A stretch of DNA of 64,000 nucleotides from an uncultured Methanosarcinales archaeon (GTDB taxonomy: Archaea > Nanobdellota > Nanobdellia > Woesearchaeales > UBA583): NCBI GenBank assembly GCA_964429995.1, contig CAYSDY010000002.1, forward strand, positions 110,361-174,360, written 5' to 3'. How positions within the stretch are numbered: the first letter of the stretch is position 1; each line of letters begins with the position of its first letter. A model generated the notes under the pieces. The model saw only the letters and a program-made list of their open reading frames with translations. It searched no databases and had not been told where the DNA came from. Shown in pieces: positions 19,311 to 38,348 of this stretch. A program made the translations under genes and the position numbers.

Positions 19311-19394
19311 ATGTAACTACAATGTAACTGAGGGAGTTATAACTTCTCTTTAATTCATTTAAAAGATGCTTTTAGATGTAATTACAATGTAACT
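19311..19394. repeat. Two 19-nt direct repeats (atgtaaYtacaatgtaact) 65 nt apart, each an internal duplication of aatgtaact
   Basis: Units at 19311..19329 and 19376..19394, 18/19 identical. They lie in the convergent intergenic region between res and the gene 19393..20037. Confidence 0.45.
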
Positions 19395-20037: not shown

Positions 20038-20122
20038 AATTCTATCTAATTTAACACATTTTATATATTTTTCGCTTTATCTAAGAAGAATTACTTATAA
20101 AGTTTTAAAGATATTAGTATTT

Positions 20123-20434
20123 ATGGTAAAAACTAAACCAACAAAAGTTACAAGAACTGTAGATGAAGTTCTAGATGGAGATACTTTTAGAGTTAAAACA
20201 AAAGTTAATGGATCTAATTATATTAGATTAGAAGATATAGATACTCCTGAAAAAGGTGAAAGAGGTTACTCTCAAGCAAAACAAGCTTTGAAAAAACAAA
20301 TTGAAGGCAAAAAAGTTACAATAACAACTTCAACTAAATGTCATTTTGGAAGACCTCTTGCAAAAGTCACACAAAATAGAACAAATGTCAGTAAAAGTAT
20401 GGATAAATTTTCAAAAAAAGGAGGTAAAAAATAA
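20123..20434 (+). CDS. Minimal staphylococcal-nuclease (SNase/thermonuclease)-like protein
   Basis: LDGDTFRV, IRLEDIDTPE and HFGRPLAKV match the SNase Ca-binding and catalytic positions (D21, D40, T41, E43, R87 equivalents). Confidence 0.55.
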   Translation: MVKTKPTKVTRTVDEVLDGDTFRVKTKVNGSNYIRLEDIDTPEKGERGYSQAKQALKKQIEGKKVTITTSTKCHFGRPLAKVTQNRTNVSKSMDKFSKKGGKK

Positions 20435-20534
20435 TAGTTTTTTACACATTAACAATATTTATTTCAATTTTTTAATAATTTGGGATAAAAATTGTTAATG
20501 TTATTTATAAAAAACAATCGATTCATAATTAAAA

Positions 20535-21797: not shown

Positions 21798-21867
21798 ATT
21801 GCTTTTTAATAAAGTATTTAAACAAATGATTTGAGGAATTAATAAGATATTAAAAGTTAAAAATAAA

Positions 21868-24691: not shown

Positions 24692-24693
24692 AT

Positions 24694-25917
24694 AATCCTG
24701 TAACTAAATCTGCTGAAATAAAAATAAAAGAAACTATTTCAAATACAGCCTTAAACAATTTTTTATTATGTCCAAAAAAATATTCATACTCAACTTTAGT
24801 TTCAAATCTAGATAAAGAAGTATTTTTAAGAGGAAATTTAGTTCATGCATTTGCAGAATTCTATGTTAATAATCAAGAATTTGTAAAAAGTAAAGAGATT
24901 GAAGAATTTGTTGATATTATTATGAATAACTTAAAATTAATGTCTAATCCTTTTCAAAATAGTATTTTAAAAACTAAAATAAGATTTGCATGTATTGCAA
25001 TTGTTGATTTTATTGATAATCTTAAAATTGACGAAAGTCTTAGTTTTGAATCGTTTAAAGAAATTTCTAGAAAGAATGAAGAGAATGTATTTGCAAAGCA
25101 TTATTCTAAATCAATGGATAAACCTAATGCGGAATTAGAGTTCAAAGATAATGAATTAAAATTACATGGACTAATAGATTTAGCAGTAAATCAAGAATTA
25201 ATTATAGATTATAAAACCTCTAAAGATAGGAAAAAAGTAATTGATATTGTAAGAAATGCAAGTTTGAGAAACATTTCAGATAAATGTGATTTTCAACCTT
25301 TAGTTTATCTTTCAATATTTAGGAAAATAACTCCCAATAAAAAAATTCAATTTTGGTATAATTTTCCTATGACAGATATTTATGAAAAGATTGTAGGTAT
25401 TGAATTAGAAGAAGATAATAATGTTAAAGTTCATTATATTCCAACTTCATTTATAGATTATATTGTTTCAAAAGACTTTTATGATTATTTTAACGAAACA
25501 GCTCCAAAATATGCTGAACCGATATTGAGTTTAGTAGAAGATTTCTCTTATTTCAAAGATAAAGAAATCCCCGAAGAATTATTAGAAGAGTCAGATCAAG
25601 TCTCAGAATTATTATTTGAAGATTTTAATCAATATTTGATTTCATTAGGACTTAAAGATAATAAAACAAATAGCGGGAATGTATTAAAAGTTTTAAAAAA
25701 TGTATTTGCATTTAAAGTAGGACAACAATACAAACAAAAAGAAGTTTTCTTTTTCAAAGATGATTTAGATAACTTTGAAGAATATGTAAATCAAAGTATT
25801 AACAAAATGAATGAATACATTAAATCTAATTTCCCTTATGAACCAATAGATGGCGAAAACACTTGTAATAATTGTGATTTCAAAAAGCTATGTTTAAAGA
25901 GGTATGAGGTAAAATAA
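24694..25917 (+). CDS. PD-(D/E)xK nuclease with Fe-S Cys ligands (Cas4/AddB nuclease-domain-like); reading frame open upstream of first ATG (24922), likely frameshifted continuation of 23273..24691
   Basis: Upstream in-frame region has LNNFLLCPKKYSY (N-terminal Cys motif). Core has GLIDLAVNQELIIDYKTSK. C-terminus has CNNCDFKKLC (CX2CX5C). There is no ATG/GTG/TTG between the stop at 24616 and 24922. Confidence 0.5.
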   Translation, partial: NPVTKSAEIKIKETISNTALNNFLLCPKKYSYSTLVSNLDKEVFLRGNLVHAFAEFYVNNQEFVKSKEIEEFVDIIMNNLKLMSNPFQNSILKTKIRFACIAIVDFIDNLKIDESLSFESFKEISRKNEENVFAKHYSKSMDKPNAELEFKDNELKLHGLIDLAVNQELIIDYKTSKDRKKVIDIVRNASLRNISDKCDFQPLVYLSIFRKITPNKKIQFWYNFPMTDIYEKIVGIELEEDNNVKVHYIPTSFIDYIVSKDFYDYFNETAPKYAEPILSLVEDFSYFKDKEIPEELLEESDQVSELLFEDFNQYLISLGLKDNKTNSGNVLKVLKNVFAFKVGQQYKQKEVFFFKDDLDNFEEYVNQSINKMNEYIKSNFPYEPIDGENTCNNCDFKKLCLKRYEVK

Positions 25918-25918
25918 A

Positions 25919-26410
25919 ATGACAATTCAAAAAAAACTTAAAACAATGAATAAGGAAGAGTTAATTTTAGTTATTAATGATTTATTAAAATATAATTCTG
26001 AAAATAGAAAGTATTTAAATTTAAGATTATCTGATGAAATTGATTTTAAAAAATTATCAGAAGAATCAAAAATAAAAATTAAAAATTGTTTTTCAGATTT
26101 TAAAGCAGATATTAGAAGAAGTAAAAAGATACTTAGCGATTATAATAAATTAAATCCTCCTATTGATTTGTATTTAGATTTATTCTTATTCTACTTAGAA
26201 TATGGAATTAAATATGGACAACATAGAGATATGTATTCAAGCTTCTATTATAGCTTTGAAATAATGTTTGAAAAGTTTCTTGATTTAATTAAAAATGATT
26301 CAATTTTAGTTTCAAAGTATAAATCAAAGTTAGAAAAGATTGTTGATAATTCTCAACCAGGTTATGGACATTACGATACTCTTTCAGAATTAATGGAGGT
26401 TATAAAATAA
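25919..26410 (+). CDS. Hypothetical small protein
   Basis: 163 aa, with 1-nt gaps to both neighbours. Confidence 0.4.
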   Translation: MTIQKKLKTMNKEELILVINDLLKYNSENRKYLNLRLSDEIDFKKLSEESKIKIKNCFSDFKADIRRSKKILSDYNKLNPPIDLYLDLFLFYLEYGIKYGQHRDMYSSFYYSFEIMFEKFLDLIKNDSILVSKYKSKLEKIVDNSQPGYGHYDTLSELMEVIK

Positions 26411-26411
26411 A

Positions 26412-29243
26412 ATGGGAGCAAATACAAAACAAGATGCAGTAATTAAAAGTACAGATGGAATTTATATTGTAGATGCAGGAGCAGGAACGGGTAAGACATA
26501 TTCAATTACACAGAGATATTTAGAAATATTAAACAAAGGAGTTAATCCTAAAGATATTTTTTTAGTTACATTTACCAGAAATGCATCAACTCATATGAAG
26601 GAAAAAGTAATTTCTAAAGCTGATCCAAAAATAGCAACAGAGATAATAGATGCTCCAATACAAAACTTTGATTCTTTTTGTTTTAAAATTGTTTCAAAAT
26701 ATGGTTTGAATGCACCAAAGATATTAGGAATTGAAGATAATCTTTCAGGATATAAATTAATATCTCAGTCAGTTATACAAAAAAGAATATTTAATAAATT
26801 CTTTAATCAATTCTTAGAAGATAATCAAGATAAATATCAAAAATTATTAGTTTCAATATCAAATCAATTAGAAATACATTCTTTAATTGAGACATTATTA
26901 TCTAAAGGGATTTATCCTACAAAAACAGGATGGTTTTTAGATGCTGAAGATAAACTTAAAGGAGATTATAAATTATTTGCAGAACATTTTAATAAAATAA
27001 ATGAACCTGGAATTGGTGCTAAAGGACCAACTCAATCAGATTTATTAAGTAAGATGAAAACTAGGATTTCATCTAAAAGCTTTTTAGATATACCTGAGAC
27101 TATAGAAACTGAAAAACAAGTAAATCCTAAGTTGATAGATGATATATTTTATGATGATAGGGGAGAAATTATTGAATTTATTCATCATGTATTTATTGAT
27201 TACATTGAATATATGATTAAAGAAAATTCTATGACATTTTCATTAATTGCTATGTTTGCATTTTTAATTTTGTATAATGAAGATGAAGTAAGAAATATTA
27301 ATTCATTCGATTATATTATGGTTGATGAATTTCAAGATACTAATGAAATGCAATTTATGTTAATTCTTCTTTTATTAAAGAAACCTAATCTTTGCGCTGT
27401 TGGTGATTGGAAACAAGGTATTTATGGATTTAGAAATGCTACAATAAGTAATATTAGAGAGTTCAATACTAAGATTGAAAGATATAAAAATCAGTTAAAC
27501 AAAGAAAAGATAAGAATTTCATTTGATGTTTCTCAAATAACACCTCTTGATTTTGATGTAAATTATAGAAGTTCTCAAAAAATTTTAACTTTTTCTGAAA
27601 GGAGTTTAATTACAAAAGCAAGTAAGAATGAAACTATTGATATAGAAGATATTCAAAAAGATATTGTTTCCTTGAAAAGTAATTTTGAATATGATGAATG
27701 TAGTGAGATTAAGTACTATGAAGCAATTGACAAAGAAACTGAAATTAATTATATATTAGAAAAGATTCAAAATTTAGTAGGCAAGAAGACAATAAAATAT
27801 TTTGATTCAGAGATAAAAGAGTACAAAGAAAGATTTATTGATTTTAATGACATTGTAATTCTTTCAAGAACTAGGACTTTTGGCTTAGAAGTTCAAAAAA
27901 AAGCTAACGAATATAATATTCCTGCAGTTTATGAAGGAGGAATTAAACTATTTGAAGAAGAACCTTCAATTTTGCTTCTTGCTTGGTTAAAACTTTTATT
28001 ATATAAAAATAAAAGAGAAGCATGGATACCAATTCTTGAAAAAGAAAGTTATTCATATGCTCAGATTAAATATATTCTAGATAATAAAGAGTATCCTAAA
28101 GAGATTCTTGAATTTAGAGAACATTTGTTGAAAAATAGAAAGATAATAAACTATATTATTGATGAAATATTGAAAAGATATAATTTTACAGGTCCAGTTT
28201 CAAATGCAATGCTCAATATTTTAGATCAAATATTCCATTCAACTTTGATGTCAATAAGTGATTTAATTGTGTTCATTGAAGAAAATATTGAAAATGGGGA
28301 AACATACAATATTGAAATGGAAGGCTCGACTAATTCAATTAAAATTCAAACAATACATGGTTCAAAAGGATTAGAATATCCTATTGTGTTTGTTGTTAAT
28401 TGTAATCTTTCGAATTTCCCAAGTACAATCTCGGATAGTAACTCTTTAACATTTAACGAGATAGTAGGAATAAGAAATAAGAAGTTTTATTCTACTGAAC
28501 ATGAGTTTGTATTTGATAATTGGAAAACTGAACTTGCAAACATGGGATTATTTTCAGATATGGATGAAGAAAGAAGATTATTGTATGTTGCAATAACTAG
28601 AGCAATGTATGATGTTTATTTTACAGCTCACAGACCCTCCGAATTCTTCAATGAACTTTCAGGAGAAGAAAAAGAAGTTATTGAAGAGACTAAGATTGAA
28701 AAATTAAATTTAGTTGAAAAGCAAGAATCATCGACACTAAAAATTAATACTGTTATTGAGGCTAAAAATAAAGTACTAGGTGTTCATGATTTAATGAATT
28801 TTAAAGAGGGACAAAAAGGAAGAGGTATGGAATTTGGAACGATTATACATAAGCTTGCATTTAGATATATTAAAGGATTAAAGATAAGTTCTATTGATAA
28901 TGAATTTAAGCAAGACTTTGAGAATATTAAATCTTTTGTTGATACTGAGTTGAAATATGGGAAGCTTATGCCTGAGATTGATTGTTCTTTACCTATTGAT
29001 GGAACTTTAATTAGAGGAATAATAGATTTAGTTGTAGAGTTTGATAATAGAATTGAGATAATTGATTGGAAAACTGATTTAGTAAAAGATAATATTGAAG
29101 AATATTCTAAGCAATTATCTATTTATTATTATGTATTGAAGGCTATTTATCCTGATAAAGAGATTGTTTGTAAAATCTTTTGGACTTGTAAGGCGCAAGT
29201 TGATGTAGTTAAAGTTGTTGAATTAGGGGTGGTGATAGAGTAA
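26412..29243 (+). CDS. UvrD/PcrA-like SF1 helicase with C-terminal PD-(D/E)xK nuclease domain (AddA/RecB-like)
   Basis: VDAGAGTGKTYS (motif I), VDEFQDTN (motif II), IHGSKGLEYPIVFVV and LLYVAITRA (V/VI). C-terminal GIIDLVVEFDNRIEIIDWKTD is the nuclease motif. Confidence 0.8.
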   Translation: MGANTKQDAVIKSTDGIYIVDAGAGTGKTYSITQRYLEILNKGVNPKDIFLVTFTRNASTHMKEKVISKADPKIATEIIDAPIQNFDSFCFKIVSKYGLNAPKILGIEDNLSGYKLISQSVIQKRIFNKFFNQFLEDNQDKYQKLLVSISNQLEIHSLIETLLSKGIYPTKTGWFLDAEDKLKGDYKLFAEHFNKINEPGIGAKGPTQSDLLSKMKTRISSKSFLDIPETIETEKQVNPKLIDDIFYDDRGEIIEFIHHVFIDYIEYMIKENSMTFSLIAMFAFLILYNEDEVRNINSFDYIMVDEFQDTNEMQFMLILLLLKKPNLCAVGDWKQGIYGFRNATISNIREFNTKIERYKNQLNKEKIRISFDVSQITPLDFDVNYRSSQKILTFSERSLITKASKNETIDIEDIQKDIVSLKSNFEYDECSEIKYYEAIDKETEINYILEKIQNLVGKKTIKYFDSEIKEYKERFIDFNDIVILSRTRTFGLEVQKKANEYNIPAVYEGGIKLFEEEPSILLLAWLKLLLYKNKREAWIPILEKESYSYAQIKYILDNKEYPKEILEFREHLLKNRKIINYIIDEILKRYNFTGPVSNAMLNILDQIFHSTLMSISDLIVFIEENIENGETYNIEMEGSTNSIKIQTIHGSKGLEYPIVFVVNCNLSNFPSTISDSNSLTFNEIVGIRNKKFYSTEHEFVFDNWKTELANMGLFSDMDEERRLLYVAITRAMYDVYFTAHRPSEFFNELSGEEKEVIEETKIEKLNLVEKQESSTLKINTVIEAKNKVLGVHDLMNFKEGQKGRGMEFGTIIHKLAFRYIKGLKISSIDNEFKQDFENIKSFVDTELKYGKLMPEIDCSLPIDGTLIRGIIDLVVEFDNRIEIIDWKTDLVKDNIEEYSKQLSIYYYVLKAIYPDKEIVCKIFWTCKAQVDVVKVVELGVVIE

Positions 29244-29244
29244 G

Positions 29245-30693
29245 ATGATTGACTATAATAAAATAGAAACTATATTACAAACTTCAAAAGCTTTTGAGTT
29301 AATCAGAGTAAAGAATTTGCCTGAAATTCTTTCATTTTTATATAAAGAATTTAAGGAAGATAGTAATAGTACTTTAAAGTATGAAGAAGCCATAACTAAA
29401 CTTTCTAATTATTTAGATATATTGGAAAGTGAAAATGAAAATGATTTTTTAATTAGTAATTTTGAAAAAGCAAGAAAAGTATTAGACAAATGGTGTAAAA
29501 AAGAATTTTTGGTAAGGACTGAAGATTCTAAAGGTAATTGGAATATTTCTTTAACTCCTGAAACTAATAAAGTTATCTTGTGGATTGAAGATTTAGAAGA
29601 AAAAGATTTTATAGGTACTGAATCAAGGTTTCAACTTATATTTAATCAACTAAAAGATATAATTGAAAAAAGTACTTTAGATCCTGTTGAAAGAATAAAA
29701 CAATTAGAAGAAAGAAAAACTGAAATAGAAATAGAAATTCAAAATGTAAAAAATGGAATAATAAATCCTGTTGAGAATTATTTAATTCAAGAGATGTATG
29801 AAAATGTATTAAAAAATGCTAGAAGTTTAGTTTCTGATTTTTCAGAAGTTGAAAAAAATTTTAAAGAAATTATAAGTAAAATATATGAAGACCAAATTAG
29901 TCAAAAATATTCTAAAGGTTCAATTGTTATTAATACTTTTAATTCATTGGAAGCATTAAAAGAAAAAGATCAAGGAAAAAGTTTCTATGGATTTTGGCAA
30001 ATTTTATTTAATCAAAATGGTTCATCTCAATTAGATAAGTTAATTGGAGAAGTTCATTTAATTTTAGATGACAAGAAAATAAAAAATAAAGATTTCTTTT
30101 TAGAAGATCTTAGATTTCAATTACATGAAGCAGGGAAGAAAGTAATTGCTACAAATATTCTTTTAGCCGAAAGATTAAATAGGTTAGTAAACAACGAAAA
30201 TTTAAAAGAAAGTAAAAAAATATTTGAGACAATTAATGAGATTAAAAAATTAATGATTCAAAATGTTAATAATTCAAATAATATAAATAATTTAATGTGT
30301 ATAGAATTAAATCCTGAATTTAATTTTCCATTTGAAAGAAATCTTTTAGAATTAAGTTTTAAATCAAATATTAAAGAAATTATTTTACCTGAAATTAAAA
30401 TTAATCTGGAAGATATAAGTGAATTATTTTCATATGTTCCTGTAAATGAAACTGAGTTAAAAAATAGAATATTGGAACAAATAAAGGATAATAAAGAAAT
30501 TTCATTAGGGGAATTAACAAAGAATATCCCTATAGAGAAAGGAGTTGAAGAAATTTTAAAATATTATAGTTTAGCTTTAAATGATTTACAAAAGTTTTCA
30601 AATATTGATAATATTAATAAGGAGATAATTACTTTTGATTATAATAAACAAATAGGGTTAGAGGTACCTAAAATTATATTTACTAAAAATTAA
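29245..30693 (+). CDS. jetA: Wadjet JetA-like (MksF-like kleisin-type) protein
   Basis: 482 aa. It is the first of four overlapping genes whose sizes and order (482/196/1131/384 aa) match JetA/B/C/D. It has a coiled-coil middle and no catalytic motifs, as expected. Confidence 0.5.
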   Translation: MIDYNKIETILQTSKAFELIRVKNLPEILSFLYKEFKEDSNSTLKYEEAITKLSNYLDILESENENDFLISNFEKARKVLDKWCKKEFLVRTEDSKGNWNISLTPETNKVILWIEDLEEKDFIGTESRFQLIFNQLKDIIEKSTLDPVERIKQLEERKTEIEIEIQNVKNGIINPVENYLIQEMYENVLKNARSLVSDFSEVEKNFKEIISKIYEDQISQKYSKGSIVINTFNSLEALKEKDQGKSFYGFWQILFNQNGSSQLDKLIGEVHLILDDKKIKNKDFFLEDLRFQLHEAGKKVIATNILLAERLNRLVNNENLKESKKIFETINEIKKLMIQNVNNSNNINNLMCIELNPEFNFPFERNLLELSFKSNIKEIILPEIKINLEDISELFSYVPVNETELKNRILEQIKDNKEISLGELTKNIPIEKGVEEILKYYSLALNDLQKFSNIDNINKEIITFDYNKQIGLEVPKIIFTKN

Positions 30694-30694
30694 A

Positions 30695-31285
30695 ATGGAA
30701 AATAATGATACTAATTATGATGAAAAATCTATATATTCTGAAACTCTAATAAAATTACTTAAAGGTATTTTGTATAATGATGATGTTAATGCCTGGGATA
30801 ATTTAAGAATTTTTCAAAAAGATATAAGAAATTATTTTTTAAAAATAAATCTTGAATTAATTATTGATGAAGATAAAGGTTTTGCTTTTTTAAAACAAAT
30901 TGAAAATGATGAAAATAAAAATAATTTGCCAAAATTAATTAATAAAACTTCTTTAGGCTATGATTTAACTTGTTTTTTAGTAATATTGAGAGAATGGTTA
31001 GAAGATTTTAAGAAAAATTCAGCAAATTTATCAACTTTATATATTTCTGAAGAAGATATAAAGGAAAGAATCGAGTATTTTTTTAAACATAATACTGATG
31101 GTTTGCAATTAATTAAAAGAATTAAACATTTAATAAAAGAAACAATAAAATTAGGATTTATAAAAGAAATTAATAATTCAATAGAATTAAAATATGAAGT
31201 AAAAAGAAGTCTAGAAGCTAAAGTCAATGTTGATTTTCTAGAAAATTTTAAGGAGGAATTAGAGAAGAATGGAACTGAAAATTAA
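30695..31285 (+). CDS. jetB: Wadjet JetB-like (MksE-like) protein
   Basis: 196-aa acidic protein. N-terminal LIKLLKGILYNDDVNAWDNL...EDKGFAFLKQ resembles the conserved JetB/DUF4194 block. 1-nt gap to jetA and overlap with jetC. Confidence 0.5.
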   Translation: MENNDTNYDEKSIYSETLIKLLKGILYNDDVNAWDNLRIFQKDIRNYFLKINLELIIDEDKGFAFLKQIENDENKNNLPKLINKTSLGYDLTCFLVILREWLEDFKKNSANLSTLYISEEDIKERIEYFFKHNTDGLQLIKRIKHLIKETIKLGFIKEINNSIELKYEVKRSLEAKVNVDFLENFKEELEKNGTEN

Positions 31286-34200
31286 AGAATATGATGATTC
31301 CATTAGTGGTTTCAGATTAAATTTTATTGAAGTATATAATTGGGGTTTATTTCATGGAAATGTTCAAAGAATTAATCCTAATAGTAAAAGTTCAATTTTA
31401 TTGGGAGAAAATGGAGCAGGTAAGACAACATTAGTAGATGCAATTCAAACTATATTAGTTCCAAACAAATTAAGAGCATATAATCAATCTTCAGGAGCAG
31501 AGAATAAAAAAGATAGAAATGAGATTACATATATTCAAGGAAAATATGGAGAAATTAAAAATAATGAAACTGATAATAGTATAACTGAACAGTTTCTAAG
31601 AACTGAAAAAGGTGAGATATATTCTGTACTTCTGGCTTCTTTCTCAAATTTAGATAAAAAAGAAATATATACTTTAATTCAAATATTATGGTTTGGAAAA
31701 AATGGAATAAAAAAATTATATATTGTTTCAAATAAAGAATTAACTATTGATAATGATATTAGACCTTTTAATAATGATGCTAAATGGAGAAGAGATTTTC
31801 AAAAAGAATATGAGAAAAATCTAGTTTTATTTGAATTAGATAACTCTGGAAAATATTTTCATTTAATTCAAAAAATATTTGGATTAAGATCTGAAAAAGC
31901 TTTGAGTTTATTTTCAAAAACTATAGGAATAAAAGTTTTAGGTAGTCTAGATGAATTTATTAAGAATGAAATGATTGAAGATTATAACACAGAAGAAGAA
32001 TTTAGAGAATTGCATAAACATTATTTATCTTTATTATCTATTCATAAATCTATTCAAAAAGCGAAAAAACAAATTCTATTGTTAAAACCAATATTTGAAG
32101 AAAATAATGAACTTGAAAAAATAAATACTGAATTAAATAAAGTTCTTTTAATTGAAGAAAATATTGAACTATATTTTCAAAAGATTAAACTGGCAAAATT
32201 AATTGAAAATTCTGAATTAATAAATAAAGAAATTGTTAAAATTAAAATAGAGGTTAATAATATTATAGAAAGAATTAATAAATTTAAATTAAAAGAAAAA
32301 GAATTAGAAACAATGATTAATTCAGATGAACAAGGCAAATTAATAATTAATATTGATTCTCGAATTGAGAGTTTAAAAATAGAACAAAAAAAAGTACATT
32401 TTAAACATCAATCTTATATAGAACTTTGTGATCTTGTTGGAATAAATATTAATAATCTAAATGAAGAAAAATTTATTATTAATAATAATAAAATAAAACA
32501 AGAAATTGTTTTAGTAAATTCAGAATATGAGAAGAAAAAAGAAGAATGGGCTGATAAAAGAAATGAAGTTGAAAATTTAAGTACAAATATTAAAGATATT
32601 AGTGAAGAATTAAGTTCATTAGAAAACAGAAAAAACAAAATTGATTATAATTTGATAAAAGTTAGACATAAAATAATAACAGAATTAGGATTAAAAGAAT
32701 TAGAAATACCATTTGTTGGAGAATTAATTAAAGTAAAAGATTCGGAAAAAGATTGGGAGAAAGCAATTGAAATTGCATTAAGAAGTTTTGCTTTAAAACT
32801 AATAGTTCCTGAGAAACATTATTCAAAAGTAAATAAATATATAAAAACAACATTTTTAAACGAAAAAATTTCATATTACAAAGTTAATGATAATTTTATA
32901 ACTAATATTGAAGAACATGATAAAACTAAGTTTTTAATAAATAAAGTTGAAATCAAGGATGATACGCAATATTTTAATTGGATAAAATATAATATTTCTA
33001 GATACTATAATTACATTTGTACTGAAAATTTAGAAGAATTTGAGAAAGAGGATAAGGCAATAACTAAAGAAGGATTATTAAGAGATTATAATAAACATCA
33101 AAAAGATGACCGTAAAAATTTATTTGATAAAAGTAAATTTATATTGGGATGGAATAATGAAGATTTACTTAAAATTAAAAAAAACGAATTAGAATTTATA
33201 CGGAACCAACAAAAATTATTGAAAAGTGAAGAAATTGATTTTAAGAATCAATTATTAGCATTGGAAAATAAAAAAGAAACATTAAACGATTTAATTAAAT
33301 ATGATAATTATGAAATAGTTGATTTTAATTCAATTCTTATTGAGATTAGTAATTTAGAAAAAAATAAATTAAAAGTACAAAAGAATAATTCGAAAATAGA
33401 TGATTTTCAAAATCAATTAGAAAAAACTAAAGAAAAAATTGAAATAAATGATAAAAATAGAATAGATAAATTAAGTAAACAAAAGAACTTTGAAGATAAT
33501 TTAAATTTAATAAATGAAAAAATTGAATCAATTAAAATAATAGTTGAAAATTCTAAGTTAAATTTTGATATAGAAAAACTAATTGAAGAATTTTTAGAGA
33601 TTAATATTCTCAATTGGAATTTAAATAATTTTGAATCAAATCAAAGATTTGAAGAAAAGAAAATACAGCATTTAAAAGAAAAATTAAGAGAAGAAATAGA
33701 TAATAAATCTAAAAAAATTTTAGAATTAATGTCTGAATATAGAAATCCTAAAGATCAAAAAATACATGAGGATTTTCCAGAATGGATTGGTGAAAATAGT
33801 TTTCTTTCGATTAAAGTTGATTATTTATATGAATATATTGATAAATATAAAAAAATTGAATGTGAAGAATTGCCTGATGCAGAAGAACAATTTGAGAGAA
33901 TATTTGAAGAATCTATAATCTTTAAAATGGCTGATTTTCAAGAAGAATTGGAAAAAAGAAGAAAAAAAATAATAGAGAGTATTAGAGAATTAAATTTATC
34001 ATTAGAAAAAATAGATTTTACTTCATTTCCACAAACTTATATTAAAATAAATGAAGAGACAACCAACAATGAGTATATAAAAAAATTTAGAGAAGAACTT
34101 AGAGATTGGAAACCTAATGCAGGAGGTTTAAGTAGAGGTTACAATAAAGATGCATATGAAGAAAGCTTTAATAAAATTAAAATGTTAATAAATAAATTAT

Positions 34201-34664
34201 CAACTAATGATAATTATAGAAAATTTGTTATGAATGTTAAAAATTGGTTTACATTTTCAGTAAATGAATATTGTAGAGATGATAATTATTTAAGAAGGGT
34301 ATATCAAAGTACTAGTGAACTTTCAGGAGGAGAGAAAGCTCAATTAACATATGCAATATTAGGAGCTTCATTATCATATCAATTTAACATTGAGAAAGGT
34401 ATTAAATCTCAAAATTCATTTCGTTTTGTAATAGTAGATGAAGCATTTAGTAAACTTGATAATATTAAATCTAAATATTTGATGGAATTAATTAAAAAAT
34501 TACATTTACAAGTTTTAATAGTTACTCCTAATGAAAAGATGCATGTCGCTCAAGATTATGTTCAAAATGTTCATTATATAAATAAAAATGATAATATTTC
34601 CACTATAATGAATATGCCATATATTGAATTTGATAAATTAATAAATAAAAATGAAAATCTCTGA
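31269..34664 (+). CDS. jetC: Wadjet JetC-like SMC-family ATPase (MksB-like)
   Basis: N-terminal LLGENGAGKTTL (Walker A). About 800 aa of K/E-rich coiled coil. C-terminal LSGGEKAQLTYAILGA (ABC signature) and FRFVIVDEAFSKLD (Walker B). Confidence 0.75.
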   Translation: MELKIKEYDDSISGFRLNFIEVYNWGLFHGNVQRINPNSKSSILLGENGAGKTTLVDAIQTILVPNKLRAYNQSSGAENKKDRNEITYIQGKYGEIKNNETDNSITEQFLRTEKGEIYSVLLASFSNLDKKEIYTLIQILWFGKNGIKKLYIVSNKELTIDNDIRPFNNDAKWRRDFQKEYEKNLVLFELDNSGKYFHLIQKIFGLRSEKALSLFSKTIGIKVLGSLDEFIKNEMIEDYNTEEEFRELHKHYLSLLSIHKSIQKAKKQILLLKPIFEENNELEKINTELNKVLLIEENIELYFQKIKLAKLIENSELINKEIVKIKIEVNNIIERINKFKLKEKELETMINSDEQGKLIINIDSRIESLKIEQKKVHFKHQSYIELCDLVGININNLNEEKFIINNNKIKQEIVLVNSEYEKKKEEWADKRNEVENLSTNIKDISEELSSLENRKNKIDYNLIKVRHKIITELGLKELEIPFVGELIKVKDSEKDWEKAIEIALRSFALKLIVPEKHYSKVNKYIKTTFLNEKISYYKVNDNFITNIEEHDKTKFLINKVEIKDDTQYFNWIKYNISRYYNYICTENLEEFEKEDKAITKEGLLRDYNKHQKDDRKNLFDKSKFILGWNNEDLLKIKKNELEFIRNQQKLLKSEEIDFKNQLLALENKKETLNDLIKYDNYEIVDFNSILIEISNLEKNKLKVQKNNSKIDDFQNQLEKTKEKIEINDKNRIDKLSKQKNFEDNLNLINEKIESIKIIVENSKLNFDIEKLIEEFLEINILNWNLNNFESNQRFEEKKIQHLKEKLREEIDNKSKKILELMSEYRNPKDQKIHEDFPEWIGENSFLSIKVDYLYEYIDKYKKIECEELPDAEEQFERIFEESIIFKMADFQEELEKRRKKIIESIRELNLSLEKIDFTSFPQTYIKINEETTNNEYIKKFREELRDWKPNAGGLSRGYNKDAYEESFNKIKMLINKLSTNDNYRKFVMNVKNWFTFSVNEYCRDDNYLRRVYQSTSELSGGEKAQLTYAILGASLSYQFNIEKGIKSQNSFRFVIVDEAFSKLDNIKSKYLMELIKKLHLQVLIVTPNEKMHVAQDYVQNVHYINKNDNISTIMNMPYIEFDKLINKNENL

Positions 34665-35805
34665 GAAAATAATTAATACTAGTAAGAATAAATATTTGGA
34701 CTTTTTAAAAAGTATTATATTAAAAGATGAGAATTTTTTCCCATTAAGATTAAGAATAAAATTGCCACATCCAAAAAATAATTATTTAGAATTTTATGAG
34801 ACAATGAAGGAAATAAATTCCAAATCAAAAGAATCAATAAAATATGGTTATTTAATTTCTTTTAATCCTGGAATAAAAACTAGAGATGCAGGGACTCAAG
34901 ATATTCCTAATTCAGTTTTTTTTGAATCTGAAAAAGATTATTTATCATTTTTAAATAAAGAACAGGAAGTTAATCAATTTAAAAAAGATTTTAAGTTAAT
35001 TTTAACAAAGTATCCTGAATTGAAATCATGGATTGAAAGATTTCCAATTAAAATAATTAATTCAGCAGGATTATGGCATGATATATTGAAGGTCTGTGAT
35101 TATTTTTATTTGAACCCTAAACCTAATTTATATATTAGGGAATTGCCAATACAAGTTCATACTAAATTTATTGAAAATAATGAAGCAATAATTAGAGAAT
35201 TGTTAGACATATTAATTAGTAATGAAATTAACTCTTTAGAATTTGATTTTAAAAAAAGATTTAACTTAAAGTATGATCAATTTTTAATCAGAGTTAAAGT
35301 TTTGGATAAGAACATACTTTTGAAAAATAATTTGAATAACTCTTTTTTAGATTTTAGTTTACCACTAGATTTATTTGAGAAATTAAATTTAAATGTTGAT
35401 AAAGTATTTATTGTTGAAAATAAGATGAATTTTTTAACTTTCCCAAATATTGAAAATTCAATAATCATATCAGGTTCAGGGAATGGAGTCAATATTTTAA
35501 AGAATTCTTCTTGGCTTAATGAAAAACAAATTTATTATTGGGGTGATATAGATTCTCATGGTTTTGCAATTCTTTCAAGTTTTAAAAAATATTTCTCAAA
35601 TATAAAATCATTATTTATGGATTTTAAAACATATGATACATTTAAAGAGTTTGAAGTAAAAGGAGAAAAAACAGTTCAAGAAACTTTTTCTAATTTAACT
35701 GATGAAGAATTAAAAGTATTTAATTATGTTCATAGTAATAATTTAAGATTAGAGCAAGAAAGAATTTCTCAAGAATATATTATTAATAATTTGAAAAATG
35801 AATAA
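34651..35805 (+). CDS. jetD: Wadjet JetD-like protein with C-terminal Toprim domain (MksG-like)
   Basis: 384 aa. VFIVENKMNF (Toprim Glu) and YYWGDIDSHGFAI (DxD) lie in the C-terminal half. Overlaps jetC by 14 nt. Confidence 0.6.
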   Translation: MKISEKIINTSKNKYLDFLKSIILKDENFFPLRLRIKLPHPKNNYLEFYETMKEINSKSKESIKYGYLISFNPGIKTRDAGTQDIPNSVFFESEKDYLSFLNKEQEVNQFKKDFKLILTKYPELKSWIERFPIKIINSAGLWHDILKVCDYFYLNPKPNLYIRELPIQVHTKFIENNEAIIRELLDILISNEINSLEFDFKKRFNLKYDQFLIRVKVLDKNILLKNNLNNSFLDFSLPLDLFEKLNLNVDKVFIVENKMNFLTFPNIENSIIISGSGNGVNILKNSSWLNEKQIYYWGDIDSHGFAILSSFKKYFSNIKSLFMDFKTYDTFKEFEVKGEKTVQETFSNLTDEELKVFNYVHSNNLRLEQERISQEYIINNLKNE

Positions 35806-36958
35806 ACAACAACTATACCTAAAAAAGATTGAAAATGATGTTAATGAGAAAATATATGATTTGTTAATTCAACATCTAAAAGATGTTCATAAAGTACTTC
35901 CTAGAACTGATGATAATAAAGATTATTTAAGAGAGTTAAATAAACATCTATTCAAAGCATTAGAAGATTTAAAACAAACAAATAGATTTAACTACTTACA
36001 AAACTATAGACACTCAATTCTTATTATAAATACTATTCTTAGCTATAAACCTGATGAGAAACATCTAAAAGAAGTTAAGCTTTCAATATTAAATAGATTT
36101 TCCTCAGATATTATTTACGATAAAAAAGAGAAGATTCCATTAAAGTCTCAAATGACTGAACTTAGAATTACTTATGATACTAGCTATTTAATCTATCTTT
36201 TAGAAAAAGTTTTCATACCAAAAGAGATGTGGGATAAGGCAATGTATTGTTTAATTGCAATAGAATTAGTAGAACCAGATCATAACGATATTGATAAATT
36301 TAAAGAAATAATCACAAAACATCTAAAAAAAGAAGAATTAAAATATAAAGAATTTGAAGAACCTAAAGACTATATTATTCTTTTAGATACAAATATTATT
36401 TTAAATAAAGTATTATATGATGTTGGAGAATATAAAATATCTCATAACAAATTAGAAGAGTATAACTCTTTGATGGAAAAATGGGGAAATAACAATAAGT
36501 TTGTAATAACTAACTCTATAAAAGAAGAGTTAGACAAACAAATTAAATTTTCAATTGATACAGTAAACGATGTTTGTTCTAAGTTTAAACATTTTAATAA
36601 AAATGAAATTATTACAACACTTGAAAAGAGGTTTAATAATTTAATAAAAAAATATGCAATTGCAATAGAAGATAAACAATATGATTTAACAAATATTGAA
36701 AAATTCTACTCAAATTACTTAGGAAACTTATATGAAATAACTTTAGATAAAATCGAAAACAAGAAGTTATCTAAAAAATTAAAAAAACTCTCAGATAGGG
36801 AAGGTTTGCTTCCAGAAATAGGAGATCTGAAACTTTTAGCAGATGCAATTGAACTTAAGAAATCTAATTCAAAGGTAGCAATACTTTCAAATGATAAAGA
36901 CTTGTATTTATTTAATGAACAATTAGAAAAAGAATTTGGAATAAGAATTTACAAATAG
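35798..36958 (+). CDS. PIN-domain nuclease with long N-terminal helical extension, translationally coupled to jetD
   Basis: C-terminal domain has YIILLDTNIIL, KEELD, LLADAIE and LSNDKDL, the four acidic positions of PIN domains. Its ATG overlaps the jetD stop by 8 nt. Confidence 0.55.
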   Translation: MNKQQLYLKKIENDVNEKIYDLLIQHLKDVHKVLPRTDDNKDYLRELNKHLFKALEDLKQTNRFNYLQNYRHSILIINTILSYKPDEKHLKEVKLSILNRFSSDIIYDKKEKIPLKSQMTELRITYDTSYLIYLLEKVFIPKEMWDKAMYCLIAIELVEPDHNDIDKFKEIITKHLKKEELKYKEFEEPKDYIILLDTNIILNKVLYDVGEYKISHNKLEEYNSLMEKWGNNNKFVITNSIKEELDKQIKFSIDTVNDVCSKFKHFNKNEIITTLEKRFNNLIKKYAIAIEDKQYDLTNIEKFYSNYLGNLYEITLDKIENKKLSKKLKKLSDREGLLPEIGDLKLLADAIELKKSNSKVAILSNDKDLYLFNEQLEKEFGIRIYK

Positions 36959-36989
36959 GATTCAAAACTCTAACAAATAACAACCTAAA

Positions 36990-37030
36990 GCACTTTTACC
37001 AATAATTGTGCATTCTAAAAATTTCTTTTT
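36990..37030. repeat. Copy 2 of ~40-nt imperfect direct repeat (see 5662..5701)
   Basis: gcacttttaccaataattgtgcattctaaaaatttctttttt here versus gcaaatttaccaattattgtgcatttaagtaatttcttttg there. Confidence 0.5.
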
Positions 37031-37282
37031 TAGTAAGTCTGGATTTATTCCCTTAGCAGAAACTCTAAAACTTTCAAATTTATCATTTAAGAGAAATTTT
37101 CCTCTCTTCTCAGATTCAAATTCCACATATCTTGTCGTTTTCATAATATTTCTAAAAATTTGGTTATTTTTAACACTTTGCAAAGACCATCAACCTAAAT
37201 TTGAGCCACTTATAGCCAAGATAATGAGAGAAATATTTCAGAACAAGTCTTAGTCTTAAAATGTCAAAAAAGTCTTCAAATA

Positions 37283-38203
37283 TCAATGTTTAATCACCTC
37301 TAACACTTTTTCATATTCTTTTACTGCAATCTCTTTTTTGTTTAAATAATGAGTCATTCCAACATTTTTTGAAGTTGACCTTCCAGATATGAAGTTTGCT
37401 ATTTCAATTGCAACTCCTGCTTTAACCATTAAAGTAAATGAATACTTTCTTAGATATTTTAAATGAACTATTTTCTTATTATCTTGAGTATGATCTACAA
37501 ATCTATTGAAGTATGTTTTATCAAATTTGCCAATATGTTTTTTTAATTCATTATATAATTCTAATGTGAAGAATAAATAATAAGATGATTTCTGACCTCT
37601 TAAATAGAAATTATTGTAAGTAACTATGCCGTTTTCATGTATTTCTATGTTTTTTTCATCAAAATTTTCAAAGAAATGTTTAACTTCTGTTGTCCTAGCT
37701 GTTGTTTCAATATAGAATCTATATAATAAATAATGTAATCGATCATACTTAGAGACTTCTTTTACAGAGTTTTTAATTTCCAAACATGTTGGAATATAAG
37801 TATCAATATGAACTTCATTGTGAATTTTAATTCTTCTTCGGATATTTTCAATTATATCTAAGTCTAATATATCAAACTCTTCTAAGTAATTCAGCCATAC
37901 TCTAATTGCAACTCCTCCTTGTCTTTTGTTAATTTTTTCAAGAGCAATAGCATTTTTAATCTCTTCAATAGTATTAACACCAATCTCTTCAAACAATTTA
38001 GTTAGACAATTAAAAACAGATACTGCGTAAGTTCTTGTGAACTTTTTTAAAGTATATACTTTATATTCATTTTTTGTCTTAAAGTATATACTTTTTAATT
38101 TTATAAAATTTTGATTTTTTGGCGTAAAATTTTCTAGATTTCGAGAAATTTGCTGTTGATTAGAAATTTGAGAGGAGGCGTATTTGCCCCCTAGAGACGC
38201 CAA
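37283..38203 (-). CDS. int: Tyrosine recombinase / integrase (second paralog); reading frame is open through the adjacent tRNA-Ser gene, start undefined
   Basis: C-terminal RKYSFTLMVKAG...GRSTSKNVGMTHYLN (H..R...Y) and IETTARTTEV (R). The ORF track's longest frame (37283..38326) begins at a TTG inside the tRNA duplicate and reads through the tRNA. There is no ATG/GTG/TTG downstream of the tRNA until about residue 98. Relative to int 10821, the protein lacks about 60 N-terminal residues. Confidence 0.65.
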   Translation of the reverse strand: MASLGGKYASSQISNQQQISRNLENFTPKNQNFIKLKSIYFKTKNEYKVYTLKKFTRTYAVSVFNCLTKLFEEIGVNTIEEIKNAIALEKINKRQGGVAIRVWLNYLEEFDILDLDIIENIRRRIKIHNEVHIDTYIPTCLEIKNSVKEVSKYDRLHYLLYRFYIETTARTTEVKHFFENFDEKNIEIHENGIVTYNNFYLRGQKSSYYLFFTLELYNELKKHIGKFDKTYFNRFVDHTQDNKKIVHLKYLRKYSFTLMVKAGVAIEIANFISGRSTSKNVGMTHYLNKKEIAVKEYEKVLEVIKH

Positions 38204-38279
38204 GACAGGGATTTGAACCCTGAATTCCGAAGGAACTACATTAGCAGTGTAGCGCAATACCGAGTTATGCGATCTTGGC
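38198..38279 (-). tRNA. tRNA-Ser (anticodon GCU), no encoded CCA
   Basis: Minus-strand sequence gccaaga..ctaca-ctGCTaa-tgtag, long variable arm ttccttcggaatt, T-arm cagggttcaaatccctg, acceptor tcttggc plus discriminator g. The 7-bp acceptor and 5-bp anticodon stems pair perfectly. Confidence 0.8.
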
Positions 38280-38308
38280 ATTAGGTCTCTTTTTTTAGTC
38301 GCCGCCGG

Positions 38309-38348
38309 ATTAGCAGTGCTGCGCAATACCGAGTTATGCGACCTTGGC
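38309..38348 (-). repeat. Tandem partial duplicate of tRNA-Ser 5-prime half (acceptor/D-arm/anticodon loop, ~40 nt, 3 mismatches)
   Basis: Reads gccaaggtcgcataactcggtattgcgcagcactgctaat on the minus strand, versus gccaagatcgcataactcggtattgcgctacactgctaat in the tRNA. It lies 29 nt upstream of the tRNA 5-prime end. It is a likely att remnant. Confidence 0.55.

What the first reader, a model, noticed from the sequence alone, without database searches (positions are those of the whole stretch)
37283..38348. Integrase reading frame runs straight through the tRNA-Ser gene: possible SSV-type int(C) fragment or tRNA-overlapping start
The int frame on the minus strand stays open from 38362 to 37283. 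It includes the whole tRNA (38279-38198) and the tRNA duplicate. The ORF track's start is a TTG inside the duplicate.

Downstream of the tRNA there is no ATG, GTG or TTG in frame until about codon 98. The protein begins about 60 residues later than its paralog at 10821.

In SSV-type archaeal integrases, attP lies inside int, and integration into a tRNA splits the gene into int(N) and int(C). The int(C) frame then reads out of the tRNA exactly like this. The alternative is an unusual start codon or an int gene whose 5-prime end overlaps the tRNA.
Basis: partly seen in the sequence, partly recalled or inferred. Interest (0 to 1): 0.6.

Follow-up and report, generated by a model that had tools for sequence, protein, structure and literature searches.

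The report
Split integrase half beside tRNA-Ser
This is the catalytic back half of a self-splitting ("suicidal", SSV-type) archaeal integrase, left beside a serine tRNA gene when a mobile element entered the chromosome of a small DPANN archaeon; the mechanism is known, but this case lies outside the heat-loving archaea where it was described and has an unexplained extra half-tRNA.

Summary
On the minus strand the integrase frame is open from 38362 to 37283, through a 40-nt orphan tRNA-Ser 5' half, a 29-nt spacer and the whole tRNA-Ser(GCU). Past the tRNA there is no in-frame ATG/GTG/TTG until TTG 37996, which lies inside conserved sequence.

The protein is a PF16795 integrase whose catalytic domain matches SSV1 Int (E about 2e-26). 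Un-split relatives have an N-terminal ribbon-helix-helix domain, then a tRNA fragment inside the reading frame, then the core. In one such relative the tRNA 3' end sits 35 codons before the first conserved core motif; here it sits 33 codons before it. The window copy therefore lacks its N-terminal part and is an int(C) fragment.

It sits at the edge of a roughly 26-kb defence island. The core is under strong purifying selection (dN/dS 0.04-0.10). A 1.39-kb block (orphan, spacer, tRNA, int(C), small ORF) is 96% identical in a distantly related Woesearchaeota genome, so the module is mobile.

No int(N) partner or second att copy is in the window. The orphan half-tRNA ends exactly where relatives that use a tRNA 5' half as att have their junction. 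Whether this element carries its own tRNA-Ser is unresolved. Verdict: new member of a known kind.

The parts
38309..38348 (-). Orphan tRNA-Ser(GCU) 5' half (tRNA positions 1-40, acceptor GCCAAGG, anticodon stem CAGCA). Similarity to the tRNA stops just 3' of the anticodon loop. It is probably an attL-type junction.
   Evidence: (D7). The same breakpoint occurs in L100 (Ser-UGA), in L099 (Ser-GGA) and inside the intact integrase P0168 (Thr-GGU).
38280..38308 (-). 29-nt spacer 'x' (CCGGCGGCGACTAAAAAAAGAGACCTAAT). Its 5' end is G+C-rich. Orphan start to tRNA start is 69 nt, or 23 codons, so both tRNA pieces are read in one frame.
   Evidence: It is 29/29 identical in L009/L016, the 29-nt counterpart in L001 is about 69% identical, and L015 has none.
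38198..38279 (-). Complete tRNA-Ser(GCU), 'type A', the only tRNA in the window. The integrase frame reads through it.
   Evidence: Its 5' half is identical next to this integrase in four hosts: window, HK-STAS-Nano-1, L015 and L013.
38198..38217 (-). T-loop to 3' end of the tRNA (TTCAAATCCCTGTCTTGGCG). This is the segment found as a second direct copy in L013 and L014, and is a candidate 3'-type att core.
38099..38197 (-). Linker between the tRNA and the conserved integrase core, 33 codons with no stop and no start codon.
   Evidence: In the intact relative P0013 the tRNA 3' end to 'LKSxYF' spacing is 35 codons.
37286..38098 (-). Integrase core, the int(C) fragment. It runs from the conserved LKSIYF motif to the C-terminus and has all catalytic residues. 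The stop codon is at 37283-37285.
   Evidence: Pfam PF16795 E = 2e-26. PDB SSV1 Int 3UXU/3VCF/4DKS E about 2e-26. Invariant residues R167, K246, R249, R272, Y283. dN/dS 0.04-0.10.
37994..37996 (-). First canonical in-frame start codon (TTG) downstream of the tRNA. It is inside conserved sequence and is not a plausible start.
36962..37183 (-). Small conserved ORF (60-73 aa) directly downstream of int(C). It is the last gene of the 1.39-kb shared module and its function is unknown.
   Evidence: No Pfam or PHROG hit.
12006..36958 (+). Cargo of the island next to int(C): RhuM, type III R-M (methylase plus ResIII), RmuC, PD-(D/E)XK and UvrD/PD-(D/E)XK nucleases, Wadjet JetABCD and a PIN-like 386-aa protein. 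About 24.7 kb of it is absent from the syntenic locus L015.
10821..11948 (+). Intact paralogous PF16795 integrase (375 aa) at the far side of the island, convergent with int(C). It has its own about 100-aa N-terminal region with no tRNA-like stretch. It is not the int(N) partner.

Best explanation
The ORF at 37283-38194 is the int(C) fragment of an SSV-type ('suicidal', type I) tyrosine integrase belonging to an integrated element in a DPANN (Woesearchaeota-like) chromosome.

In this integrase family the recombination site attP is a piece of a tRNA gene. It lies inside the integrase reading frame, between a ribbon-helix-helix N-terminal domain and the catalytic core. Recombination with the chromosomal tRNA gene therefore cuts the integrase gene in two. 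The catalytic part, with no promoter-proximal start codon of its own, is left reading straight out of tRNA sequence. That is what is seen here.

Shown:
- homology to SSV1 Int;
- the missing N-terminal domain;
- the absence of a start codon;
- a coding-type open linker up to the tRNA;
- the same architecture in relatives, both intact and split;
- mobility of the module between distant hosts.

Inferred:
- int(C) is not translated on its own;
- the partner int(N) and second att lie outside the window or were lost, leaving a defence-gene island fixed next to the tRNA;
- the orphan 5' half-tRNA 69 nt upstream is an attL-type junction made by an integrase of this family that uses the tRNA-Ser 5' half as att.

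My preferred reading, with moderate confidence, is that this junction belongs to the present element. The element would then carry the 29-nt spacer and a complete tRNA-Ser(GCU) inside its own integrase frame and would replace the interrupted host gene.
For: Protein homology:
- Pfam PF16795 E = 2e-26.
- A profile of the family hits only the SSV1 Int catalytic domain in the PDB, E about 2e-26, with R, KxxR, GR and Y aligned.
- phrog_5127 'integrase' aligns only from profile position 123 of 355, whereas the intact paralogue aligns from position 48.
- The review PMC8371274 equates PF16795 with suicidal integrases.

Intact relatives:
- P0013/L004 carries a sense tRNA 3' half in the ORF.
- P0016/L007 carries an antisense 3' half.
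- P0168/L101 carries a sense tRNA-Thr 5' half.
- All have an RHH N-domain.

Family survey:
- A T-arm motif lies just upstream of the core in 58 of 95 loci.
- 8 loci from new metagenome contigs, plus L004 and L007, are intact with an N-terminal extension.
- 32 are open only from the tRNA piece.

This locus:
- No in-frame start between the tRNA and TTG 37996.
- The linker is open in five loci.

Mobility:
- Core dN/dS is 0.04-0.10.
- Between the window and syntenic L015, int(C) has dS 0.48 and 92% aa identity, while host genes have dS 1.2-1.8 and 56-73% aa identity.
- The 1.39-kb block is 96.3% identical in Woesearchaeota HK-STAS-Nano-1. The window's TYW1 has no hit above 67% identity, in a database that does hold that genome's proteins.

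Orphan junction:
- L100 and L099 show a tRNA-Ser 5' half, ending after the anticodon loop, fused directly to an int(C) linker.
- The 'type A' tRNA 5' half is identical next to this integrase in four hosts, while the orphans differ.
Against: - No int(N)-like RHH ORF and no second copy of any tRNA-Ser segment is in the window or in about 10 kb beyond its left end. The split is therefore inferred from one border only.
- No un-split close relative (above 50% identity) was found in any database searched.
- All five close copies are intact and under purifying selection. That could also mean the fragment has a function in place.
- For the sub-hypothesis that the element carries its own tRNA: the complete HK-STAS-Nano-1 chromosome has only two matches to the 5'-half pattern, the orphan and the tRNA. 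The expected third copy at the far junction is absent or diverged.
- L015, L013 and L003 have the tRNA plus int(C) without an orphan.
Confidence: 0.82

Rival explanations
1. The gene is complete and functional in place. Translation starts at the ATG that straddles the first nucleotide of the tRNA (38281-38279), or at TTG 38326 in the duplicate, giving a 332-347-aa protein whose N-terminus is encoded by tRNA sequence.
For: The frame is open through the tRNA and the orphan. An ATG or TTG straddling tRNA nucleotide 1 and in frame with the integrase is also present in L009, L001, L015, L003 (an 84-nt tRNA with a different frame in the T arm) and L012 (tRNA-Leu). Gene callers annotate it this way, as in P0001. 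Core dN/dS is 0.04-0.10.
Against: The tRNA-encoded stretch replaces the RHH domain seen in every intact relative. By general knowledge of tRNA processing, a transcript containing a functional tRNA would be cut by RNase P and tRNase Z, separating the start codon from the body. T at position -1 is also seen at tRNA-Ser genes with no integrase directly attached (L013, L014). There are only about three independent cases and the pattern was noticed post hoc. Linker dN/dS is about 0.3 to 1.1.
Confidence: 0.06
2. It is a naturally short integrase that starts near the LKSIYF motif at a non-canonical codon, like the 276-aa homologue P0004 that begins MLKSIYF. The upstream open frame would then be irrelevant.
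For: P0004 and P0005 begin with M exactly at this motif. The core is intact and under purifying selection. An AT-rich TATA-like stretch precedes the motif.
Against: The window has AAA-TTA at that position and no ATG/GTG/TTG. P0004 itself is preceded by a 59-codon open linker running back into a tRNA-Ser(GGA) 5' half, so it too looks like an int(C) with a fortuitous ATG. The linker stays open in five loci, which is unexpected for a non-coding leader at 30% G+C.
Confidence: 0.07
3. It is a classical (pNOB8- or lambda-type) integrase sitting next to its tRNA att site, and has simply lost its 5' end or start codon by mutation. It would be an ordinary pseudogene, not a product of self-splitting.
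For: It is adjacent to a tRNA and an island, as is usual for classical integrases. No int(N) was found.
Against: The domain family is the suicidal one. The loss would have to end exactly at the tRNA in several independent lineages and tRNA types. Intact relatives have the tRNA piece inside the ORF. There are no frameshifts or stops anywhere in about 300 codons.
Confidence: 0.04
4. This concerns the orphan only. The orphan plus spacer would be the scar of a different, earlier element that used the tRNA-Ser 5' half as att and was later deleted down to 29 nt. The present int(C) would belong to a separate element that used the tRNA 3' end.
For: Both att types exist in the family: 3' repeats in L013 and L014, 5' junctions in L099, L100 and P0168. 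L015, L003 and L013 have the tRNA plus int(C) without an orphan. There is no third 5'-half copy in the complete HK-STAS-Nano-1 genome.
Against: The spacer is 29/29 identical and the orphan 38/40 identical in two hosts that are only distantly related, while the DNA immediately upstream is unalignable. A chromosomal scar should not travel with the element. The 69-nt, in-frame spacing is kept in the 81%-identical lineage L001.
Confidence: 0.35

Closest known systems
SSV1 integrase and the SSV-type (type I, 'suicidal') integrases of Sulfolobales (She et al. 2001-2004; structures 3UXU, 3VCF, 4DKS)
   Same: The catalytic domain is homologous, with R, KxxR, R and Y aligned. The att site is a tRNA gene segment inside the integrase ORF in intact relatives. 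The gene is left as int(C) next to the tRNA after integration.
   Different: The host is a low-G+C (25%) DPANN archaeon; one carrier, HK-STAS-Nano-1, is a Woesearchaeota MAG. The N-terminal domain of intact relatives is an RHH (CcdA/RHH_3-like) domain. The integrase and tRNA are co-directional here. The int(N) partner was not found.
pT26-2 and pTN3 family suicidal integrases of Thermococcales and Archaeoglobales (Badel et al. 2020, PMC7253208; Cossu et al. 2017)
   Same: Same Pfam domain. The att is usually the tRNA 3' end with the T stem-loop as core. The peptide at the int(N)/int(C) junction is the translation of att. Integrated copies are far commoner than intact ones. Chimeras of int(N) and int(C) have been proposed.
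   Different: Those integrases were reported mostly at tRNAs without a long variable arm and antiparallel to the tRNA. Here the targets are class II tRNAs (Ser, Leu), and sense, antisense, 3'-half and 5'-half att variants all occur within one family.
[quoted passage not shown]
   Same: A tRNA 5' segment is used as att. This matches the junctions in L099, L100 and P0168 and the orphan in the window.
   Different: In the window the 5' half is followed not by the integrase linker directly but by 29 nt and a complete second tRNA-Ser. I did not see a description of that arrangement in the two papers consulted.
tRNA-linked genomic or defence islands with a flanking integrase (general bacterial and archaeal pattern; 'gene capture' of She et al. 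2001)
   Same: An island of R-M, Wadjet and nuclease genes lies next to a tRNA gene, bounded by integrase genes, and varies between related genomes.
   Different: The bordering integrase is a split fragment rather than an intact gene. A second, intact paralogue sits at the other side of the island.

Membership tests
SSV-type (type I, suicidal) archaeal tyrosine integrases | Catalytic domain of the Phage_integr_3 (PF16795) / SSV1 Int type | tested here: met
   Pfam 93 bits against a cut-off of 27. A family profile matches 3UXU/3VCF/4DKS with E about 2e-26. phrog_5127 integrase matches. PF16795 is equated with suicidal integrases in PMC8371274.
SSV-type (type I, suicidal) archaeal tyrosine integrases | Catalytic residues (Arg, Lys-x-x-Arg, Arg, Tyr nucleophile) present | tested here: met
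   R167, K246, R249, R272 and Y283 are invariant in 23 sequences. They align with SSV1 RLSE, KYFRK, GR and HY.
SSV-type (type I, suicidal) archaeal tyrosine integrases | attP lies inside the integrase ORF of the un-split gene | tested here: inconclusive
   The feature is met in relatives of 37-41% identity: L004, L007, L039, L044, L060, L082, L090, L095 and P0168-P0170. No un-split copy of this element or its close clade was found.
SSV-type (type I, suicidal) archaeal tyrosine integrases | Integration into a tRNA gene, with int(C) abutting tRNA/att sequence and in frame with it | tested here: met
   The same holds in L003, L009, L012, L015 and L001.
SSV-type (type I, suicidal) archaeal tyrosine integrases | int(N) plus a second att copy at the other border of the element | tested here: inconclusive
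   Neither was found in the window (38 kb on the relevant side), in about 10 kb beyond it (L097), or in the flanks of relatives. The rest of the genome could not be searched, and decayed elements often lack this border.
Type II (pNOB8- or lambda-type) integrases | The gene stays complete after integration, with its own start codon and N-terminal domain, and att lies outside the ORF | tested here: not met
   No start codon occurs before conserved sequence. About the first 120 profile positions are missing. The tRNA lies in frame.
Split tRNA genes (Nanoarchaeum-type halves joined through complementary G+C-rich leaders) | A 5' half followed by a leader complementary to sequence upstream of a separate 3' half, with the halves forming a valid tRNA | tested here: not met
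   The reverse complement of the G+C-rich spacer occurs nowhere else in the window. L001's orphan cannot pair with the adjacent 3' half (by inspection). Fold z-scores are -0.9 and -1.3.

The most novel reading that the evidence does not exclude
The element carries a complete tRNA-Ser(GCU) gene inside its own integrase reading frame, in the order RHH domain, tRNA-Ser 5'-half att, 29-nt spacer, full tRNA, linker, core. It would recombine through the 5' half of the host's tRNA-Ser gene. That strands the host 5' half as the orphan and puts the element's tRNA under the host promoter. Once the far junction is lost, the cell would depend on the element-borne tRNA, which would lock the island in place. 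The integrase would be a chimera of a 5'-att int(N) and a tRNA-linked int(C), of the kind proposed for suicidal integrases.
Probability: 0.4. Interest if true: 0.65.

Novelty: new member of a known kind. Interest (0 to 1): 0.5.

Why it matters
Self-splitting integrases have been described as a speciality of hyperthermophilic archaea, and their persistence was explained partly by extreme thermostability (PMC7253208, PMC8371274).

Here the same gene architecture is common in DPANN archaea from ordinary environmental metagenomes. Dozens of loci show intact and split copies, and att can be either half of a tRNA in either orientation. The module has recently moved between distantly related hosts and flanks a large defence island.

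This widens the host range of the mechanism. It gives a practical rule for annotating DPANN genomes: ORFs 'starting' inside tRNA genes are int(C) stumps that mark island borders. If the own-tRNA reading is right, it also offers a new way for an element to make itself indispensable.

Tried and rejected
- **Split-tRNA idea.** I asked whether the orphan 5' half plus the G+C-rich CCGGCGGCGAC is half of a split tRNA gene. No complementary partner is in the window. The orphan of L001 is incompatible with the neighbouring 3' half. Folding is not better than shuffles. Rejected.
- **Orphan as an alternative 5' exon using the downstream 3' half.** The window and L009 orphans could pair using G-U wobbles, but L001's cannot. 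Rejected.
- **The paralogue at 10821 as source of, or partner for, int(N).** It is on the opposite strand and intact. It has no tRNA-like or G+C-rich stretch, and its N-terminus has no second copy in the window. Rejected.
- **Searches for attR.** I searched for 23-nt and 20-nt tRNA 3' patterns with mismatches, ran blastn-short with the whole tRNA, and scanned for G+C-rich islands. The G+C scan found only a terminator-like hairpin at 4784-4809. Nothing was found.
- **Searches for int(N).** tblastn with RHH N-termini and an HMM built from eight of them found nothing below E = 0.6.
- **Search for an episomal copy.** A scan of viral contigs with the tRNA 3' end plus linker start gave 0 hits. An exhaustive HMMER search found no un-split relative above 50% identity. 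A peptide query across the tRNA-encoded region returned no candidates.
- **Promoter and terminator scanner.** Not used, because it models bacterial sigma-70 signals.
- **L003 in the dN/dS table.** The L003 pairs used the wrong frame and are ignored.
Full report
**The locus.** The window is about 25% G+C. Its only tRNA is tRNA-Ser(GCU) on the minus strand (ARAGORN 38196-38280; Rfam 38279-38198, 55.8 bits).

Read on the minus strand, the order is as follows:
- host genes: an HVO_2753-type zinc-finger protein, cyclophilin, TYW1 and further on a CCA-adding enzyme;
- a 40-nt copy of tRNA positions 1-40 (38348-38309, 37/40 identical), which stops matching just after the anticodon loop;
- a 29-nt spacer that begins CCGGCGGCGAC (38308-38280);
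- the complete tRNA;
- a 33-codon linker;
- an integrase core ending at 37283.

The integrase frame is open from 38362. The in-frame start codons are TTG 38326, ATG 38281, TTG 38257 and TTG 38203, all within tRNA-derived sequence. The next is TTG 37996. That codon lies 34 codons inside sequence conserved across homologues.

**What the protein is.** The post-tRNA translation (303 aa) matches Pfam PF16795 (Phage_integr_3) at 93 bits. A profile of 23 family members hits only the SSV1 integrase catalytic domain in the PDB (3UXU, 3VCF, 4DKS; E about 2e-26). The Arg, Lys-x-x-Arg, Gly-Arg and Tyr positions align and are invariant. The review PMC8371274 states that the SSV, pTN3-like and pT26-2-like suicidal integrases are the ones carrying PF16795.

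Against the phage integrase profile phrog_5127, the window protein aligns only from position 123 of 355. The intact paralogue at 10821 aligns from position 48. The paralogue alignment begins at residue 35 after the tRNA and residue 102 of the paralogue. The catalytic part is thus complete and an N-terminal part is missing.

**What the un-split gene looks like in relatives.** Two database hits of about 40% identity are longer at the N-terminus, P0013 (368 aa) and P0016 (375 aa). Their DNA shows a tRNA 3' half inside the ORF. It is in sense orientation in L004 and antisense in L007, with no complete tRNA there.

In P0013 the tRNA 3' end lies 35 codons before the LKSxYF motif. In the window it lies 33 codons before it.

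A metagenome scan with the family alignment gave 80 more loci. A T-arm motif lies within about 450 nt upstream of the core in 58 of 95 loci held, mostly antisense. After removing duplicate sequences the classification was as follows:
- 10 loci scored as 'intact', with an N-terminal extension of 40 aa or more ahead of the tRNA piece. Two of these (L001, L009) are not truly intact, because their extension is the orphan and tRNA sequence itself. That leaves 8 from new metagenome contigs, plus L004 and L007, which the motif window missed.
- 32 loci have a frame that opens only at or just before the tRNA piece.
- 7 loci are cut by contig ends.

The N-terminal extensions are ribbon-helix-helix domains (CcdA PF07362 and RHH_3 PF12651 above their cut-offs; sequences).

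This is the defining architecture of type I integrases as described in PMC7253208: the peptide at the int(N)/int(C) junction is the translation of att. The exhaustive HMMER search added intact examples with a sense T arm (P0170, P0179). It also added one with a sense tRNA-Thr 5' half running through the anticodon loop (P0168/L101).

**Is the open frame meaningful?** The linker between the tRNA and the core is 30% G+C and has no stop in the integrase frame in the window, L009, L015 and L001. Shuffles give P = 0.07-0.08 each. The other two frames have 1-3 stops. The unrelated, 63-codon linker of L003 gives P = 0.004. The linker is, or recently was, coding.

Its amino-acid sequence is weakly constrained (dN/dS about 0.3 to 1.1), whereas the core has dN/dS 0.04-0.10. 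Openness through the G+C-rich tRNA pieces is by itself weak evidence.

**Mobility.** L015 shares the host side with the window (zinc-finger gene, cyclophilin) and the tRNA-int(C) module. Host genes have dS 1.2-1.8 and 56-73% aa identity. The integrase core has dS 0.48 and 92% aa identity.

A 1.39-kb block runs from position 5 of the orphan, through the spacer, tRNA and int(C), to the small downstream ORF (38344-36953). It is 96.3% identical in L009/L016, the complete chromosome of Ca. Woesearchaeota HK-STAS-Nano-1 (CP060218.1). Both flanks there are unrelated to the window.

The two hosts are not close. The window's cyclophilin, TYW1, paralogous integrase and PIN-like protein are singletons at 90% identity. 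Its TYW1 has no hit above 67%, in a database that does contain HK-STAS-Nano-1 proteins. The integration module has therefore moved horizontally and recently, and its low dN/dS is compatible with selection in an active, un-split state.

Named TYW1 hits are all DPANN (Woesearchaeota, Diapherotrites, Aenigmarchaeota) plus a few other archaea. That is the basis for the host assignment.

**Context.** Between int(C) and the paralogous integrase at 10821 lie:
- RhuM;
- a type III restriction-modification pair;
- RmuC;
- PD-(D/E)XK and UvrD/PD-(D/E)XK nucleases;
- a complete Wadjet system (JetA-D);
- a PIN-like protein.

About 24.7 kb of this region (12072-36794) is replaced in L015 by about 670 bp carrying a small toxin-antitoxin-like pair. 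HK-STAS-Nano-1 has McrBC and a UvrD nuclease at this position instead. L012 has a Dnd system behind a tRNA-Leu-int(C) junction. These int(C) stumps mark variable defence islands.

**What is missing.** The other border was not found.
- No copy of the tRNA 3' end (up to 3 mismatches in 23 nt) or of the 5' half exists elsewhere in the window, in about 10 kb beyond its left end (L097), or in the flanks of relatives.
- No RHH ORF is detectable.
- No un-split close relative exists in the protein databases or in the viral contig collection.

The split is thus inferred from one border plus the family pattern.

**The orphan half-tRNA.** Four observations bear on it.
- *The junction type recurs.* L100 has a tRNA-Ser(UGA) 5' half ending just after the anticodon loop, followed directly by a 48-codon linker and int(C) (P0177). 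L099 has the same arrangement with tRNA-Ser(GGA) and a 59-codon open linker (P0004). The intact P0168 has a tRNA-Thr 5' half at the equivalent place. P0004 and P0177 are the nearest clade to the window integrase (48-50% identity). The orphan/spacer boundary therefore looks like a genuine attL made by this family.
- *The spacer travels with the module.* It is 29/29 identical in HK-STAS-Nano-1. The DNA just upstream is unalignable, and the orphan differs only at acceptor positions 3-4.
- *The complete tRNA next to int(C) has an identical 'type A' 5' half in four hosts.* These are the window, HK-STAS-Nano-1, L015 and L013. The orphans (GCCAAGG..CAGCA, GCTGAGG..CAGCA, GCCAAGC..CGAGA) and unlinked native genes (L014, L003) vary. 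L009's orphan is identical to the 5' half of L001's complete tRNA.
- *Orphan-to-tRNA spacing is 69 nt in both the window lineage and the L001 lineage.* This keeps both pieces in the integrase frame.

These points favour an element whose integrase frame contains att (the 5' half), the spacer and its own tRNA-Ser. Against this reading:
- the complete HK-STAS-Nano-1 genome has no third match to the 5'-half pattern;
- L015, L013 and L003 lack an orphan, which would then need secondary loss by recombination between the 40-nt repeats;
- direct repeats of the tRNA 3' 20-21 nt in L013 and L014 show that 3'-end recombination also occurs at this tRNA.

I put about 0.4-0.45 on the own-tRNA model and about 0.35 on a scar of a second, deleted element.

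**Comparison with what is known.** The mechanism is that of SSV1, pTN3 and pT26-2. The two papers consulted describe suicidal integrases from Sulfolobales, Thermococcales and Archaeoglobales (with Methanosarcinales in brackets) and link them to hyperthermophily. Neither mentions DPANN. No paper in the searchable library combines PF16795 or SSV-type integrase with DPANN or Woesearchaeota. That library is incomplete, so this is absence of evidence only.

I file the finding as a new member of a known kind, with a possible variant (an integrase frame containing a whole tRNA gene) left open.

Noticed in passing
window 12006-36958: A defence island with RhuM, a type III R-M pair, RmuC, an HATPase protein, PD-(D/E)XK plus UvrD/PD-(D/E)XK nucleases, a complete Wadjet JetABCD system and a PIN-like 386-aa protein. 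About 24.7 kb of it is absent from the syntenic locus L015.
   Followed up: partly
window 10821-11948 (+): A second, intact PF16795 integrase (375 aa) at the far side of the island, convergent with int(C). It has a roughly 100-aa N-terminal region with no RHH hit and no tRNA-like stretch. Its att site is unknown. P0186 (352 aa), by inspection of its sequence, is nearly identical over most of its length. The L015 contig starts just after the equivalent position.
   Followed up: partly
L013 5217-5331 and L014 4139-4020 (minus): A conserved insert of about 94-100 nt sits directly after a complete tRNA-Ser and is followed by a second copy of the tRNA's last 20-21 nt. It is about 85% identical over its last 70 nt between two genomes. 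It has a 7-bp hairpin showing compensatory changes (AATTGTG/CACAATT against GTTCGTG/CACGAAC). It may be a miniature or decayed integrative element, or a small RNA.
   Followed up: partly
window 38082-38093 and 38050-38061 (minus strand): The 12-nt palindrome AAGTATATACTT occurs twice, 32 nt apart, inside the 5' coding part of int(C) (it encodes KSIYF and KVYTL). Both copies are kept in L001, L003 and L015, and one remains in the L013 remnant. It could be a protein-binding site or simply a coding repeat.
   Followed up: no
window 38174-38191 (minus strand), just 3' of the tRNA: A G+C-rich hairpin (GGGGGC..GCCTCC) starts the linker. Different but still paired versions occur in L001 (GATGCCC..GGGCATC), L015 and after the second att copy in L014 (GAGGG..CCCTC). 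It could be an arm or binding site, or a processing or termination signal.
   Followed up: no
window 38279-38281; L009, L001, L015, L003, L012, L013, L014, L100: Every complete tRNA, or tRNA 5' half, next to these integrases has T at position -1, giving an ATG or TTG that straddles tRNA nucleotide 1. Where an integrase follows directly, this codon is in frame with it. The three orphan halves have A at -1. There are too few independent cases to judge.
   Followed up: partly
window 4784-4868 and 36907-36965: A 59-nt direct repeat (83% identical) equals the 3' end of the PIN-like gene. The left copy is a gene fragment preceded by a G+C-rich terminator-like hairpin (AATCCCCG..CGGGGATT) and followed by a nucleotidyltransferase gene. 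In L001 that nucleotidyltransferase gene lies in one operon with the PIN-like gene. It may be a recombination scar marking an older island border.
   Followed up: partly
L015 and L099 (GCA_964384165.1, CAYLKB01): This MAG is labelled 'uncultured Methanosarcinales archaeon', yet it shares synteny and the integrase module with the window. It carries two int(C) stumps, one at tRNA-Ser(GCU) and one at a tRNA-Ser(GGA) 5' half. The label may be a binning or taxonomy error.
   Followed up: no
window 40441-40549 and 45670-45778: A 109-nt direct repeat (76% identical), 5.2 kb apart, on the host side of the tRNA.
   Followed up: no
metagenome loci L023-L077 (many): Many contigs end within 50-300 nt upstream of the integrase core, at or near the tRNA-derived piece. 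This is as expected if assemblies break where integrated and free forms of an element diverge.
   Followed up: no
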